A stretch of DNA of 64,000 nucleotides from Candidatus Latescibacterota bacterium (GTDB taxonomy: Bacteria > Latescibacterota > UBA2968 > GCA-2709665), in assembly GCA_965205485.1 (NCBI GenBank), contig OZ242180.1:4096001-4160000 (forward strand). The letters are read 5' to 3'. This document shows, one piece after another, positions 42,001-51,000 of this stretch (position 1 is the stretch's first letter; the number at the start of each line of letters is the position of its first letter). The position numbers were made by a program.

Positions 42001-45000
42001 GAGAGGGCCGGTGTCTTTCCGTTCAGTGCCTGCCGGCCGTTCTCTTCGCAGCGTCAACACAAACCATCGATCGGGATCGTCCTTGCCATGAAGGAGACCG
42101 GGATGCCCCAAAACGTCATCCTGCCGGACAATTTCAATGATCAGCTCGACATCCCCAATGCACCCGAACGGCTCAGCGAGGCGCTCGACGTCGCACGAAG
42201 GATCACCGACGCGGGCGTGCCGCTGCTGCCGAATCCGGACCACGCGGCCATTTTCGTCGATCCCCCGCGTCTCATTTCCGGCCGGCTGAAACGCATCGGT
42301 TACATTGCCGGCTGGGACACCCGCTGCTATCCGTCTCCGGTTGACGGACACGACTACATGAACGTGCCTTCCGGGCTGCCCGAAGACAGCCCGGCTCGTG
42401 GCGAGGGCTGGTTCGACTACGTCGCGGTCGTCCATCCCGTTGACGAGGACGCCCGCGACCATATGCTTGCCCAGGGTCACGGAAATCCATTCGTACACCA
42501 CATGACCTGGGGTATCGTACCGCCCGTACGTGACGATGAGGACGACTTCGAATACGCGGGAAAGGTGATTCCCTATCTTGCGAGGATACGAAAAACCATC
42601 GGGGAGGCGCTGGGCGAATCGCCGGGAGCGCTGGTCATGGCGCTACCGCAGATCGTATGTGCGGATGCCCGCTTGAGGGCATGTCTTCCGAAATGGGTCG
42701 GCGGATTGGACCCTGCTGACTATCAGGTCGAGCCGATGCAGGGCGGAGGCTTTCTGCTGCAGTTTTTCGTCCTGACCGGAGGACGAATCGAGGTCGCACT
42801 GCGGTCGGGCACACGTCAGACATTCAATCCAATGAGCGTACACAAGATCTCGAAGGACGAAATCAGCGCGGTTCAATCCGGCGGGTAGTCTTTTCGGCTC
42901 GCGGCACGGCCGACCACACGCACACACAATAGACAACCGGCGGAATCTTTCGCAGTTGCCAATCTGCACATCGATTCCGCCGGTTGTTTGTTTTTGAACC
43001 TTTGGTCAAATTGATTTCCTGTACCTCGCGGGATTGATATTCAACTGATCTCTATACTTGGCAACCGTTCGGCGGGCAATGGCGATACCTTCGTCTTTCA
43101 GCAAATCGGCGATTTTCTGATCACTCAAAGGTTTTCTGGCGTTCTCTTCCGCAATCAACCTGGAGATCTTCTGTTTTACGCTCCTTGCGGCGATGTCTTC
43201 GCCGTCGTTGCGGGTCAGTCCGCCGTCGAAAAAGTACTTCAATTCGAACACACCGTGCGGCGTCTGTACGTATTTCCCGTTGCTCACCCGGCTGATGGTT
43301 GAAACGTGCATATTCACCCGGTCCGCGACCTCCTGAAGCACCATGGGCTTGAGAAAGCCAACTCCCTTGTCGAAGAATGCACGTTGACTGTCGACAATAC
43401 ACCGCATAACCCTGAGCATTGTGGTACGGCGCTGATTGATCGCGCTGATGAACCAGCGGGCGGAATTGAGGCGATCCACGACGAATTTCCTGGCCTGACT
43501 TCCCGGTTTACCGGACTTGCTGAGCAGCGTTCTGTATGCGGGGCTGACCCGCAGGGCGGGAAGATTGCGGTCGATCAGCGATACGACATACTCGTCGCCC
43601 ACCTTCTGCACCTCGAGATCGGGTACAACCAGATTGTGATTGATACGGCTTTCCCTGTAAATCATCGGTTTGGGGTTAAGGCCCGATATCACGCTTTCGG
43701 CGTGGGCAATCGCCGCCCGGTCCACGCCGAGCGCTCGACTGATCTTCATATATCGACGGTTCACCAGGTCGTCCCAATAGCCGTGTACGATACCCATCGC
43801 GAGAGAATCCGCCAGCCCCTGCTCGCGAAGCTGGATCGCCAGGCATTCCTGGAGATCCCTTGCGCCCACGCCCGGCGGATCGAACGTCTGAATAACCTCC
43901 AGGATCTGCTCCACAGATTCCGTCTCACACCCGAAAACAGCAACAATATCCTCGATCTGCGCCTGCAAAAAGCCGTCTTCGTCGATATTGCCGATGATGT
44001 ACTCGCCAATCTTCCGTTCAGCGGCGTCCAGATCGGTAAGCGAGAGCTGGGCGCGCAGTTCGGCCTCCAATGACTGCTGCCCGGGACCGTCGTACTCCCA
44101 CTCTTCAGCGTTGGGATCGAACTCATGCCGTGGCACGGTATACCCGGCATCGTTCAGGAGCTCGTTCCACTGATTCTCGTCCAACCGTCCATCGGCCAAT
44201 GCTGTGTCGCCGAATTCCACGTCCGGCGGGTCCGCATCGTCAACTTCCTTTCGTTCCCCGTCGATATCGACCGATTCCGAACCGTCCGACTCCGGATCCC
44301 ATTCGTCGTCTTCGCGACCTGTCTCTTCCGAAACCTCCAGGAGTGGATTGGTTTGCAGTTCCTGCTGAATCAACTGTTCCAATTCGAGCGACGGCATCTG
44401 CAGCAGCCGCAACGACTGGATGAGCTGCGGCGCCAGCTTCTGCTGGAGGGAGACGGTCTGCGTGAGTTGAATCATAGGCCTTTGAAGAACCCCTGCAAAG
44501 AGTACGAAACGGGAATGAGCGAAACTTGCCGCCGGTTGATCGCGTGAAGGGGAAGTGCCGTCAAGTCATATGTCATCGGCTGTAATGTATCGGAAAATCC
44601 TCGGTGGAAAGGCATCGATGTCCGCTCAACCCCGGTTCGCCTTTCCATTTACTTCGTTAAAAATAATAAGGAAAACAGGTCCGGGTGACAATCCCAATTT
44701 TGGGTCAGTCCAATCGGAATCTGTCCCCCAGATAGACGCGTCGCACTTCCGGATTTTCCGCCAGCTCAGTCGGGCTGCCGGAGGTCAGGATCTTTCCGTC
44801 GGAGAGGATGTACGATCTGTCGGTTATCGCCAGGGTTTCGCGGACATTGTGATCGGTAATGAGGAGTCCGATACGTCGGTCCTTTAATGCGCGGACGATG
44901 GCCTGGATATCCTCTACGGCCTTTGGGTCGATACCTGCGAAGGGCTCGTCCAGCAGGAGGAATCGGGGACGTCTTGCCAGTGCACGCGTAATCTCGAGCC

Positions 45001-48000: not shown

Positions 48001-51000
48001 AGCGGACGGCATTGATGGCGCCCTCGGCGCCCCCTTCACCAAATGCTCCCGGTACGATAATACCGTGATATCCGGCGAGCACCTCCTCGACGTCGTGACG
48101 TTCGAGGCGGGTGGAGTCGATCCAGTCGATCTCAACCTTCGTATCCAACAGGGCGCCGGCGTGTTCCAGGGATTGATTGACGGAGATGTAGGAATCCTGA
48201 AATTCATAGTCTCCGATTCCGACGTATTTGCCCACCATGGCCACACGCACGCGTTCCCTGGGAGCTCGAATCATCTCCAGCAATTCACACCAGCGATCCC
48301 AGTCCGGCGTATTTTTCGGAGCCAAGCCGAACTCATCGAGTATCTTCTCGCCCAATCGGTCCTTTTCGTATTCCAGCGGAACCTGATAGATGCTGTCGAC
48401 GTCGGGCGCCGAAATGATCCGGTCTGCCGAGATATTCGCCGAAATCTCGATTTTGCGCTTCCGCACGTCGTCCAGCGCTTCCACGGCGCGGCAGATGATA
48501 AAGTCCGCGAATATCCCGTTCTCGCTCAAGGACCGGATCGCATGCTGTGTGGGCTTGGTTTTCATCTCGCCGACGTGGCCGGGTACCGGCAGGTAGGTGA
48601 CCAGCACATAGATGACGTTTTCCTCGCCGACTTCCCGTTCGAGGCTCTTCATTGCAAACAGAAAAGGGCGGTTTTCGTCATCGCCGATCGTGCCGCCTAT
48701 CTCTACCAGCGCAACATCGAATCCCTTCGCCGAGTCGGTAATCCGCTGTTTGATTTCGTCGGTGATATGGGGAATCGGTTGAACCGTCTTGCCCAGATAT
48801 TCTCCGCGGCGTTCACGCTCTATCACGGTATGGTAAATCTGTCCGGTGGTCAGGTTGTTGGTCCGCGGAAGATCGATTCCCAGGAATCTCTCGTAGTTTC
48901 CGAGGTCGAGGTCGATTTCACCGCCGTCGTCCGTTACCCACACTTCTCCGTGTTCCGTCGGACGCAGGGTACCGGCGTCGTAGTTGAGGTAAGGATCGAT
49001 CTTGATGCCCGTTGCCTTGTATCCGTGCTGCTGCAGAATTTTCCCGATGGACGCCGTAGCAAGGCCCTTGCCCACACCGCTCATTACGCCGCCGGCGACG
49101 ACGATGTATCTGGGTCCATTGTAATCACGCCGCTTGACCATCCGCTCCTCCACGTACCCAAAAAACAACGGCGGCGCTGACAAACCCGCCGCCGTCTCCT
49201 AATCGATGACCTTCGGAACCCTGAAATGGCCGACGCCTGAACTCGGCGCATTTGACAGCGCCTCTGCCTGTGACAGAGATGCAACGGGCGTATCCTCGCG
49301 AAACACGTTACTGACCGGCAGTACATGCGACGTTGGCGCAACGTCGGTCGTGTTCAGTTTCTCGAGAGCAGCCGCATAGTCAAGCATCTGATTCAGGTCG
49401 GCAACCAGCCGATCCATCTCTTCCGTATCGAACCTGAGCCGGGCGAGTTGCGCAACCTTTCGGACGTCTTCATGCGTAACTGACACAAAAAAACCCATGA
49501 AAATGGATTGAGGTTATATCCGGAATTTACATTGATGTTAATATGGGTCAATCCAGGTGCGAAATCAAGAAGATTCTGGCAAAGGAAGCGACCCGCCGGA
49601 TGTTCGTACGGCTCGGCGTCATCCCGGTCGGAGACCGGCATAACGGACGATCACCTTTCTTATGGAACCGTTCTTAAAGCATACCGTGAGTTTCGTATCC
49701 GGTCCGCTCCCGGTCCGATCCAGAATGTGCCCCCTTCCGAGGGTTGGATGGAGAACGGCGGCGCCCGCATCCATTGGGAACGGGTCGTCGTCATTCGGTT
49801 TTTTCGCGGGCATGATTGCCTGCGATACTCCCCGAACGGCGGTGCCCGCCTTCAGGTGGACAGGCCCGCCGTCATTCGGTATGTTCGTCGACTTGATTGT
49901 CGGAGTAACCTCTCGAACGGCTCCCCCTCGAACGATCAGATCATCCGGAATCTCCCGCAGGAATCTGGATTCGGCATTGACCGTCGCGCCTCCGTAACGC
50001 CGGCGCTGTTCGGCGCAGGTGAGATGGAGTCGGTCCTGCGCTCGCGTGACGCCCACATAGAACAGCCGCCGCTCCTCCTCTACGGCCGCGTCTTCGGCGG
50101 ACGGATTGTCCTGATCCCTCAGGATGGGAAACAAGCCTTCTTCCAGACCCGCAATGAATACCGCGGGAAACTCAAGTCCCTTGGCGCTGTGCAGCGTCAT
50201 CAACGTCACCGAATCAGCCTCTTCGCGCCACTGGTCGACGTCCGTGACCAGCGCGACCTCGCGCAGAAATGCCGGCAGCGAAGAGGTTTCGGATCGTTGC
50301 GCGAAATCCTCAATGGCCACCAGCAGTTCCTGCACATTCTCCGAACGGGAGAGGGTCTCGGCCGGCGTCAATTCCTCGAGTTTCTGCAGATATCCGGTCT
50401 CCTCCACGACGCTGGCAGCCAGCTCGTGAGCGGGCTCATCCTCCACGCGGTTCCGGAATCCATCAATCATGCTGTGAAACGCGCCCATCGCACTTCTCGC
50501 GCGAGCGGTGAGGCCGTCGATGCTGTTGGCGCGGGACAACGCCTCGTACGGTGCGATTCCCTCGCCCGTTGCAAAGGAATCCAGTCTTTCAAGCGAGGTC
50601 TGGCCAATACCGCGCTTAGGGGTATTGACAATCCGGTAAAGGCTGACCGAGTCGCAGGGATTCACGATCAGCCTCAGGTACGCGAGTATGTCCTTGACTT
50701 CCAGGCGTTCGTAGAATCGAACGCCCCCCACGATCACATATGGAATCGCCCGATATCGAAGCCCGTCTTCCAGCGCGCGGGATTGTGCGTTCGTTCGATA
50801 CAATACGGCGATCTGCCCGTAGCTGTATTGCGTTCTCAGGCGCTTCAATTCACGAGCGATCCGCCGGGCTTCGTCCACTTCGTCCGAGCATCGGAACAGC
50901 TGAATCGGTTCCCCGCGATCCCGATTCGTCCAGAGTTCCTTCCCCTTCCGCCCGAGATTGTTGCGAATCACCGCGTTTCCCGCATCGAGTATCACCTGTG

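What a model noticed while it worked through the whole genome (the two positions that open the first line are those of the whole stretch)
44705..49141. A diderm class without lipid A: no lpx/kds genes but a complete Lpt transport chain
The genome keeps LptB, LptC, an LptA-sized gene, LptD, LptE, LptF/G, BamA and T9SS, but has no LpxA/B/C/D/K, KdsA/B or KdtA. The lipid A and Kdo genes were cut out of two conserved operons, leaving pyrG-lptC-lptA-lptB-rpoN and clpC-bamA-skp-fabZ. The whole class UBA2968 therefore builds an outer membrane without LPS, and Lpt must carry another glycolipid.
Evidence so far: No lpx/kds family in the tables. Six-frame: LpxC 0 of 132 class genomes vs 36 of 36 in other classes; LpxB 0 of 132; KdtA 0 of 4 and KdsA 0 of 3 class genomes tested, both found in other-class controls. 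LptF/G in at least 127 of 131 and LptD in at least 112 of 131 class relatives. Synteny: other-class G008 has uvrD-kdsB-pyrG-kdsA-(acyltransferase/lptC)-lptA-lptB-rpoN, and G008/G010/G035 have bamA-skp-lpxD-lpxC/fabZ-lpxA (read from ORF sequences, call 165); this genome has uvrD-gatC-pyrG-lptC-g03318-lptB-rpoN and g00075-g00072.
(Added by a program. Inside this text positions count along the whole contig: contig position 4,096,001 is position 1 of the stretch shown here. "Call 12" and the like, gene names such as g00115 and contig names such as C1 are that model's own, and its searches are not shown. The text may have been shortened before it was handed on; [...] marks where a part breaks off. 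The agent that wrote the report below was given it as the finding of a first reader that could run no searches.)

Follow-up and report, generated by a model that had tools for sequence, protein, structure and literature searches.

The report
Bacterial class without lipid A
A whole class of uncultured, double-membraned bacteria has lost the genes for endotoxin (lipid A and Kdo) but kept the complete machine that normally carries it to the surface, and it also lacks the usual first step of membrane-lipid synthesis, so its outer membrane is probably built from a different lipid that is not yet identified, likely an ether-type one.

Summary
Confirmed. The window holds gatC-pyrG-lptC-lptA-lptB-rpoN, with pyrG overlapping lptC by 4 bases where a relative from another class has kdsA and lpxL. 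Class against the rest of the phylum: LpxC 0 of 132 vs 36 of 36; KdtA 2 vs 30; KdsA over cut-off 1 vs 24. The exceptions are short, foreign-looking contigs or a polysaccharide cluster. Lpt is kept: LptF/G 129, LptB 125 and LptD 129 of 132. The doubtful gene is a three-unit LptA by profile and fold.

The same class lacks PlsY and GpsA (0 of 132 vs 29 of 36). It carries an orphan acyltransferase (130 of 132) and an animal-like alkyl-DHAP synthase (123 of 132). The scan had found that ether operon before on other DNA; its link with LPS loss is added here.

Best reading: Lpt exports a glycerolipid made by the DHAP/ether route, probably with a sugar or inositol head. The cargo is not shown, and lipoprotein cargo is a rival. 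LPS-free diderms with Lpt are known (Borrelia, Treponema, Thermus, Thermotoga), so this is a new variant of a known kind.

The parts
44705..45427 (-). lptB, ATPase of the Lpt exporter (240 aa)
   Evidence: TIGR04406 339.5 bits vs cut-off 240; found in 125 of 132 class and 30 of 36 other genomes
45424..46749 (-). lptA, long form (441 aa, about three LptA units in one chain)
   Evidence: PF03968 25.2 vs 20.4; family profile hits solved LptA at E 5.8e-13; all-beta model, pLDDT 89.8; E. coli LptA 2r1a_C fits at TM 0.80 of target, rmsd 1.8
46791..47357 (-). lptC (188 aa)
   Evidence: TIGR04409 61.6 vs 38; PF06835
47354..47357 (-). pyrG/lptC junction, 4-base overlap; G028 has kdsA and lpxL here
   Evidence: lpxL-family gene directly before lptC in 8 of 14 other-class loci, 0 of 23 class loci
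47354..49141 (-). pyrG, CTP synthase
   Evidence: TIGR00337 655 vs 462.75
49142..49198 (-). 57-base gatC-pyrG gap; G028, G053 and G054 have kdsB here
49199..49498 (-). gatC
   Evidence: TIGR00135
49619..51874 (-). uvrD/pcrA helicase, conserved upstream neighbour
   Evidence: PF00580, PF13361; synteny
43006..44475 (-). rpoN, conserved downstream neighbour
   Evidence: TIGR02395

Best explanation
The ancestor of this class deleted the lipid A and Kdo genes from its operons and kept LptB2FG-C-A-D-E as a working bridge. It also lacks the gpsA-plsY (and, where tested, plsX) entry into phospholipids, and starts its glycerolipids from dihydroxyacetone phosphate. An orphan acyltransferase acylates DHAP; a fatty acyl reductase and an alkyl-DHAP synthase swap the acyl chain for an ether-linked alkyl chain; a short-chain reductase and PlsC finish an alkyl-acyl phosphatidic acid. 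Lpt most likely lifts a lipid built on this backbone, with a sugar or inositol-phosphate head, to the outer leaflet in place of LPS. Shown: gene absences, gene presences, synteny, folds. Inferred: enzyme activities, that Lpt is active, the cargo, and any causal tie between the two losses.
For: Lipid A/Kdo loss and Lpt retention as counted. PlsY 0 of 132 vs 29 of 36; GpsA 0 of 132 vs 29 of 36 (one-protein query, E<=1e-15); PlsX 0 of 4 class genomes; no E. coli PlsB hit in G000; rpmF runs straight into fabH, and der has no plsY-gpsA behind it. FAR-acyltransferase-AGPS-SDR at contig 291534-298642. The acyltransferase is in 130 of 132 vs 2 of 36, has an HX4D-type motif and a PlsC/GPAT fold (Z 15.5, rmsd 3.0 over 222 residues). 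G028, which lacks PlsY, GpsA and PlsX, is one of the two outside holders. AGPS matches the mammalian enzyme 4bby at E 1e-150 and is in 123 of 132 vs 1 of 36. In G068, G078 and G013 the FAR-acyltransferase genes abut the fab operon. No serine palmitoyltransferase candidate in G000: only Kbl and BioF, with bioA/B/D present. A PIP-synthase-like gene in 4 of 4 class genomes looked at, plus inositol-phosphate synthase in G000 and G057. Sponge tissue holds C14-C18 monoalkyl glycerol ethers, and agps hits were reported in sponge Latescibacterota bins.
Against: No cargo gene sits beside any lpt gene. LptF/G cavity positions show no class-specific change against LPS-bearing relatives. G028 has the acyltransferase and FAR and still has LpxC, LpxK, KdtA and KdsA, so the DHAP route does not force LPS loss. 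AGPS was not found in 9 of 132 class genomes, including the 96%-complete G057, so ether bonds are not universal. The PIP-synthase-like gene is also in G028. G000 has glycerol kinase, so glycerol-3-phosphate can be made and the acyltransferase could use it rather than DHAP. GGGPS is in 128 of 132 and offers another backbone. Other lipid exporters exist (Mla, TamB-like, an MMPL-MlaC-OEP cluster).
Confidence: 0.5

Rival explanations
1. Lpt was kept to move surface lipoproteins, as proposed for Borrelia LptD; the outer membrane lipids travel by Mla, TamB-like or MMPL routes.
For: Borrelia LptD knockdown traps surface lipoproteins (abstract of 10.1101/2022.12.21.521298). G000 has Mla, TamA/B-like and MMPL-MlaC-OEP genes. 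No clear MsbA orthologue: G028's candidate groups with E. coli MsbA (support 0.92) apart from all 11 G000 exporters.
Against: A second study found no lipoprotein defect and favours glycolipids (passages of PMC10353723). The class keeps LptE and an LptF/G cavity like that of LPS-bearing relatives. G000 has an lnt-like gene and a T9SS translocon for surface proteins.
Confidence: 0.15
2. The cargo is a lipid of a kind not examined here (amino lipid, polyketide-derived lipid, or the product of the nucleotidyltransferase/CDP-alcohol transferase cluster).
For: A cluster of NTP-transferase/CDP-alcohol transferase, OEP, MlaC and, where the locus reached it, MMPL genes recurs in G000, G013 and G098. 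G000 has a 3421-aa polyketide synthase, 11 GT4 and 17 GT2 genes.
Against: That cluster has its own exporter genes. No class-wide count was made for any of these. Ornithine, glycine and hopanoid lipid genes were not tested.
Confidence: 0.15
3. The cargo, or the main backbone, is an archaeal-type isoprenoid ether lipid made by GGGPS and a DGGGPS-like enzyme.
For: GGGPS over cut-off in G000 and in 128 of 132 class genomes; DGGGPS-like UbiA (E 4.5e-60, below cut-off) and an IdsA-like synthase. Cloacimonetes homologues made archaeal lipids in E. coli, as cited in PMC6431249 (passage).
Against: GGGPS is also in 32 of 36 LPS-bearing relatives, so it does not track the loss. No clear G1P dehydrogenase in G000 (best PF13685 E 9e-10).
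Confidence: 0.1
4. A lipid A-like molecule is still made by unrecognised enzymes, or taken from neighbours, and Lpt carries it as usual.
For: LpxH-like gene, one GT9 gene, GmhA-like and HldE-domain genes remain in G000. The LptF/G cavity is unchanged.
Against: LpxA, B, C, D, K, L, KdsA, KdsB and KdtA all fail in G000 with profiles or queries from the nearest relatives; the genes are missing from two operons with no remnant; GT9 is absent from G013.
Confidence: 0.05
5. Lpt is a relic on its way out, or the absences are assembly gaps.
For: All genomes are metagenome bins; 9 of the genomes listed have contamination of 10% or more.
Against: G000 is one contig, 97% complete. Lpt genes are intact in 125-129 of 132 genomes, about as often as in the other classes, while even 57-68% complete genomes of other classes show LpxC.
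Confidence: 0.03

Closest known systems
LPS-free diderms that keep Lpt: Borrelia burgdorferi, Treponema pallidum, Thermus thermophilus, Thermotoga maritima (passages of PMC10353723)
   Same: No LPS pathway, Lpt orthologues present, cargo debated (glycolipid or lipoprotein).
   Different: Here the loss maps to one class whose sister classes keep lipid A genes in the same operons, LptE is kept, and PlsY/GpsA are gone as well.
Sphingomonas glycosphingolipid outer membrane (passage of PMC13721041) and Caulobacter LptF2/G2/C2 sphingolipid export (abstract of 10.64898/2026.04.12.717747)
   Same: A non-LPS lipid in the outer leaflet; Lpt-type proteins moving a non-LPS lipid.
   Different: No serine palmitoyltransferase candidate in G000; most class genomes show two LptF/G matches, one pair, not a second dedicated pair.
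Myxococcus xanthus MXAN_1674-1676 (AGPS, FAR-GNPAT fusion) and ElbD (passages of 10.1101/2025.10.10.681575)
   Same: FAR, acyltransferase and AGPS in one operon; AGPS close to the animal enzyme.
   Different: The acyltransferase here is a separate 646-aa orphan with no Pfam hit and 66 hits among 1.84 billion representatives; it stands where PlsY/GpsA are missing. That M. xanthus keeps LPS is recalled, not checked.
Canonical E. coli Lpt system (LptB2FG-C-A-D-E)
   Same: All seven parts present; lptC-lptA-lptB-rpoN order kept.
   Different: LptA is about 440 aa, as in the other classes; LptF, LptG and LptD score below NCBIfam cut-offs; the basic residues that bind lipid A phosphates in Shigella (passages of PMC6744409) are mostly not basic anywhere in this phylum.

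Membership tests
Lpt transport system | LptB ATPase and LptF/LptG permeases | tested here: met
   LptF 166 and LptG 206 bits, below the proteobacteria-weighted NCBIfam cut-offs of 230 and 240 but over the Pfam cut-off
Lpt transport system | LptC and LptA beta-jellyroll bridge | tested here: met
Lpt transport system | LptD barrel and LptE | tested here: met
   PF19838 in 129 of 132; PF04390 in 5 of 5
Lpt transport system | LPS as substrate | tested here: not met
   genes for lipid A and Kdo not found; chemistry not testable
LPS-producing diderm (Raetz pathway) | LpxA, C, D, B, K and KdtA | tested here: not met
   LpxC 0 of 132, KdtA 2 of 132 on short contigs; LpxA, D, B tested in G000 only
LPS-free diderm with Lpt (Borrelia/Thermus type) | outer membrane machinery present (BamA, BamD, Skp) | tested here: met
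   TIGR03303 520 vs 297, TIGR03302 151 vs 81; SprA of G068 passes TIGR04189 and is 60% identical to the G000 gene
LPS-free diderm with Lpt (Borrelia/Thermus type) | chemically shown absence of LPS and a known replacement lipid | not testable with these tools
   no lipid data for this class were found in searches
Sphingolipid outer membrane (Sphingomonas type) | serine palmitoyltransferase | tested here: not met
   G000 only: two alpha-oxoamine synthases, Kbl (58%) and BioF with bioA/B/D; other class genomes not tested
Peroxisome/Myxococcus-type alkyl-DHAP pathway | FAR and AGPS | tested here: met
   PF07993+PF03015; 4bby E 1e-150 with the C-terminal HHH motif aligned; that this motif is catalytic is recalled
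Peroxisome/Myxococcus-type alkyl-DHAP pathway | DHAP acyltransferase (GNPAT) activity | tested here: inconclusive
   PlsC/GPAT fold and HX4D-type motif (HX4E in G000), no sequence match to a named family; substrate not testable
Archaeal-type ether lipid pathway | GGGPS, DGGGPS and G1P dehydrogenase | tested here: inconclusive
   GGGPS met, DGGGPS-like below cut-off, no clear G1PDH in G000

The most novel reading that the evidence does not exclude
This class has swapped out both lipid scaffolds of the Gram-negative envelope. It makes no lipid A and no acyl-glycerol-3-phosphate by any known route, builds its membranes from DHAP through an animal-like alkyl-ether pathway, and uses the unmodified LPS bridge to place an ether glycolipid or ether inositol lipid on its surface: an outer membrane whose outer leaflet is ether lipid.
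Probability: 0.3. Interest if true: 0.88.

Novelty: new variant of a known kind. Interest (0 to 1): 0.7.

Why it matters
What Lpt carries when LPS is gone is open even in Borrelia. Here the loss maps to one class of 132 species-level genomes with LPS-bearing relatives as controls, and the lipid options are narrowed by a second loss (PlsY, GpsA) and one gained pathway. That gives named genes to express and a chemical prediction (no 3-hydroxy fatty acids or Kdo; alkyl glycerol ethers present). The only envelope statement I found for the phylum says LPS genes are present, from two single-cell genomes (passage of PMC4454575). Many members appear to be sponge symbionts (earlier scan notes), so an endotoxin-free surface would bear on host tolerance and on the source of sponge ether lipids; that last point is inference.

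Tried and rejected
LptF/G cavity comparison (LptF: 9 class, 16 other; LptG: 9 class, 19 other; plus E. coli) showed no class-specific change. A two-gene tree (LptB+RpoN, 31 taxa; G059, G051, G024, G034 left out for missing or short RpoN) did not resolve deep nodes (support 50-67), so class monophyly rests on the tool's taxonomy. The MsbA test is weak: one small tree, and G028's candidate itself scores below the MsbA cut-off. Heptose lead: GT9 in 3 of 4 class genomes, one or two copies against six in G028; not taken as the cargo gene. The PIP-synthase-like gene and GGGPS are shared with LPS-bearing relatives, so neither marks the class. One seed, labelled LpxI, proved to be an aldolase and was dropped; LpxI is untested. 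Five class KdsA matches below cut-off (63-143 bits) were set aside as probable DAHP synthases by score, without further test. One search timed out and was redone. No RNA holder listed. PMC12993501 has no LPS or outer-membrane terms; PMC5007114 passages gave nothing on this. Word search of earlier findings for the lipid A loss returned none. Not done: class-wide LpxA/B/D/K, PlsX, PlsB, FAR, Spt; hopanoid, ornithine or glycine lipid genes; complex prediction.
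Full report
Observation. The window lies at G000:C1:4096001-4160000 in a single-contig genome of 5.13 Mb, 97% complete. On the minus strand it reads ruvX, mltG, uvrD, gatC, pyrG, lptC, a 441-aa gene, lptB, rpoN. LptB and LptC pass their NCBIfam cut-offs. A profile of 21 orthologues hits solved LptA at E 5.8e-13. Its model is all beta at pLDDT 89.8, and E. coli LptA fits it at TM 0.80 of the target, rmsd 1.8. It is a long LptA of about three units. 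LPS-bearing relatives have the same length, so the length is not an adaptation to the loss.

Lipid A and Kdo genes. The tool holds 168 genomes of the phylum: 132 in the class and 36 outside. LpxC is in 0 of 132 and 36 of 36. KdtA is in 2 of 132 and 30 of 36. KdsA over cut-off is in 1 of 132 and 24 of 36. LpxK was 0 of 3 against 2 of 2, and the LpxL family 0 of 4 against 1 of 1. In G000, profiles built from the relatives' own LpxC/FabZ, LpxD, LpxA, LpxB, KdsA, KdsB, KdtA and LpxK found only FabZ and partial hits to other hexapeptide or nucleotidyltransferase proteins. tblastn found no remnant.

Exceptions. G077 carries kdsB, a kdsC-like gene and kdsA inside a polysaccharide cluster on a 449-kb contig that also bears its LptD; this looks like a real capsule-type gain. 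G124 (8% contamination, no LpxC) has kdtA, lpxK and lpxL on an 11.9-kb contig with a group II intron, and a cut kdsA on an 8.8-kb contig. G115 has kdtA alone on a 2.1-kb contig. I read these as misbinned or foreign, which is inferred. An LpxH-like phosphoesterase remains in G000 below cut-off.

Synteny. All 23 class loci fetched read gatC-pyrG-lptC-lptA-lptB with no kds or lpxL gene. G028 reads uvrD-gatC-kdsB-pyrG-kdsA-lpxL-lptC-lptA-lptB-rpoN, and lpxL precedes lptC in 8 of 14 other-class loci. In G000 pyrG overlaps lptC by 4 bases. At the second operon G030 and G031 have bamA-skp-lpxD-lpxC/fabZ-lpxA, while G000 has bamA-skp-fabZ with a 31-base gap. Loss in the class is the simpler reading because the relatives' orders resemble those of E. 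coli. My two-gene tree did not resolve the deep nodes.

What is kept. LptF/G in 129 of 132, LptB in 125, LptD in 129, LptE in 5 of 5 genomes tried. BamA and BamD pass cut-offs, and the gene beside lptF/G is the T9SS translocon SprA. The positions that bind lipid A phosphates in Shigella LptF/G (passages of PMC6744409) do not differ between class and relatives; LptG K34 is aspartate in 27 of 28 phylum sequences and LptF K317 is glutamate in all 25. So the exporter shows no sign of decay and no sign of retuning.

A second loss. Looking for the cargo, I found no PlsX, PlsY or PlsB in G000 with E. coli queries. PlsY is in 0 of 132 and 29 of 36, GpsA in 0 of 132 and 29 of 36; 28 genomes hold both. 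PlsX was 0 of 4 class genomes and absent from G028. Relatives have der-plsY-gpsA; G000 has der without them, and rpmF runs into fabH. PlsC, CdsA, PgsA and a PssA-like gene remain, so the first acylation needs another enzyme.

The replacement. G000 contig 291534-298642 encodes a fatty acyl reductase, a 646-aa orphan, an alkyl-DHAP synthase and a short-chain reductase. The synthase matches the mammalian enzyme at E 1e-150 and is in 123 of 132 against 1 of 36. The orphan has no Pfam hit, an HX4D-type motif and a C-terminal PlsC/GPAT fold. It is in 130 of 132 against 2 of 36. The two outside copies (G028, G054) nest among class sequences in an 11-sequence, midpoint-rooted tree, which suggests transfer out of the class. 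In three genomes the genes abut the fab operon. FAR was in 4 of 4 family-f4 genomes tried, in two as a FAR/AMP-binding/acyltransferase fusion. I reached this; three earlier scan reports, seen, describe the same operon on another genome and agree. None of their listed lines mentions lipid A.

How it most likely works. Lpt remains a working bridge. With no lipid A, no Spt candidate in G000 and no known acyl-G3P entry, the likeliest cargo is a glycerolipid from the DHAP route, ether-linked in most members, with a sugar or inositol-phosphate head. A PIP-synthase-like gene, inositol-phosphate synthase, a decaprenyl-phosphate phosphoribosyltransferase, several GT-C-like genes and a Wzi/ligase/flippase cluster are available in G000. 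I put this at 0.5. Against it: no cargo gene neighbours lpt genes; G028 has both LPS genes and the orphan acyltransferase; 9 class genomes gave no AGPS; glycerol kinase could supply G3P. Rivals are lipoprotein cargo (0.15), an unexamined lipid (0.15), archaeal-type ether lipid (0.10), cryptic lipid A (0.05) and relic or artefact (0.03).

Comparison and novelty. LPS-free diderms with Lpt are described for Borrelia, Treponema, Thermus and Thermotoga (passages of PMC10353723), and Lpt paralogues move sphingolipids in Caulobacter (abstract). The kind is known. I found no report of LPS loss in this class in ten searches. A sponge preprint reports agps and elbD hits in Latescibacterota bins and alkyl glycerol ethers in sponge tissue, without mention of the outer membrane (passages and one section). 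Supplements were not seen: those of the two bioRxiv lipid preprints, of PMC4454575 and of PMC6431249 may list these genomes. Phylum-wide outer-membrane surveys in subscription journals (recalled) are outside the library and may have scored a member. Verdict: real, class-wide, a new variant of a known kind; interest 0.70.

Noticed in passing
L226, L227, L229-L232, L234, L235, L251, L252 (family f4, between pyrG and lptB): lptC and lptA are one reading frame of about 630-940 aa in 12 of 13 family-f4 loci; both parts gave BLAST hits in 10. An apparent natural LptC-LptA fusion.
   Followed up: partly
L058-L068, L369-L388 (LptF/LptG across the phylum): Acidic residues stand at LptG K34 and LptF K317 in class and LPS-bearing relatives alike, hinting that the ancestral cargo already had masked or missing phosphates.
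   Followed up: partly
G051 (f13) and G052-G056 (f14): These six have LpxC and KdtA but no KdsA over cut-off; G051 also lacks PlsY, GpsA and the orphan acyltransferase.
   Followed up: no
L270:5668-9876 and L271:6101-10309: 1403-aa FAR/AMP-binding/acyltransferase fusion (ElbD-like layout), divergent from a DAG-kinase-like gene and an MlaD/ABC-aux/DUF3078/MlaE set.
   Followed up: partly
L162:6192-15488 (G000), L255, L256: Recurring cluster: NTP-transferase/CDP-alcohol transferase, OEP, MlaC (HpnM-like), MMPL (HpnN-like); a possible separate lipid synthesis and export unit. G098 has a Ger-like PF01869/PF09989 gene beside it.
   Followed up: partly
L169:14330-15073 and L164:6702-7574: GGGP synthase, single copy in nearly all of the 160 of 168 genomes that hold it, directly after alaS in 5 of 5 loci read; a DGGGPS-like UbiA elsewhere.
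   Followed up: partly
L331, L332, L334, L353, L359: The orphan acyltransferase also occurs in records titled Trueperaceae, Gammaproteobacteria, Eisenbacteria and Planctomycetota (80 of 169 relatives shown).
   Followed up: no
L170 (G000 contig 1333328-1343593): 3421-aa type I polyketide synthase with a stand-alone ACP nearby; resemblance to the sponge-symbiont SupA is recalled, not tested.
   Followed up: no
window 37235-41698 (-): Large protein with five lamin-tail domains and a weak C-terminal sorting-domain hit; likely a T9SS cargo.
   Followed up: no
window 42103-42888 (+): 261-aa ORF with no Pfam hit, converging on rpoN.
   Followed up: no
L043 (G124, 11.9-kb contig): kdtA, lpxK, lpxL and a GT4 beside a group II intron reverse transcriptase; probably foreign to the bin.
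   Followed up: partly
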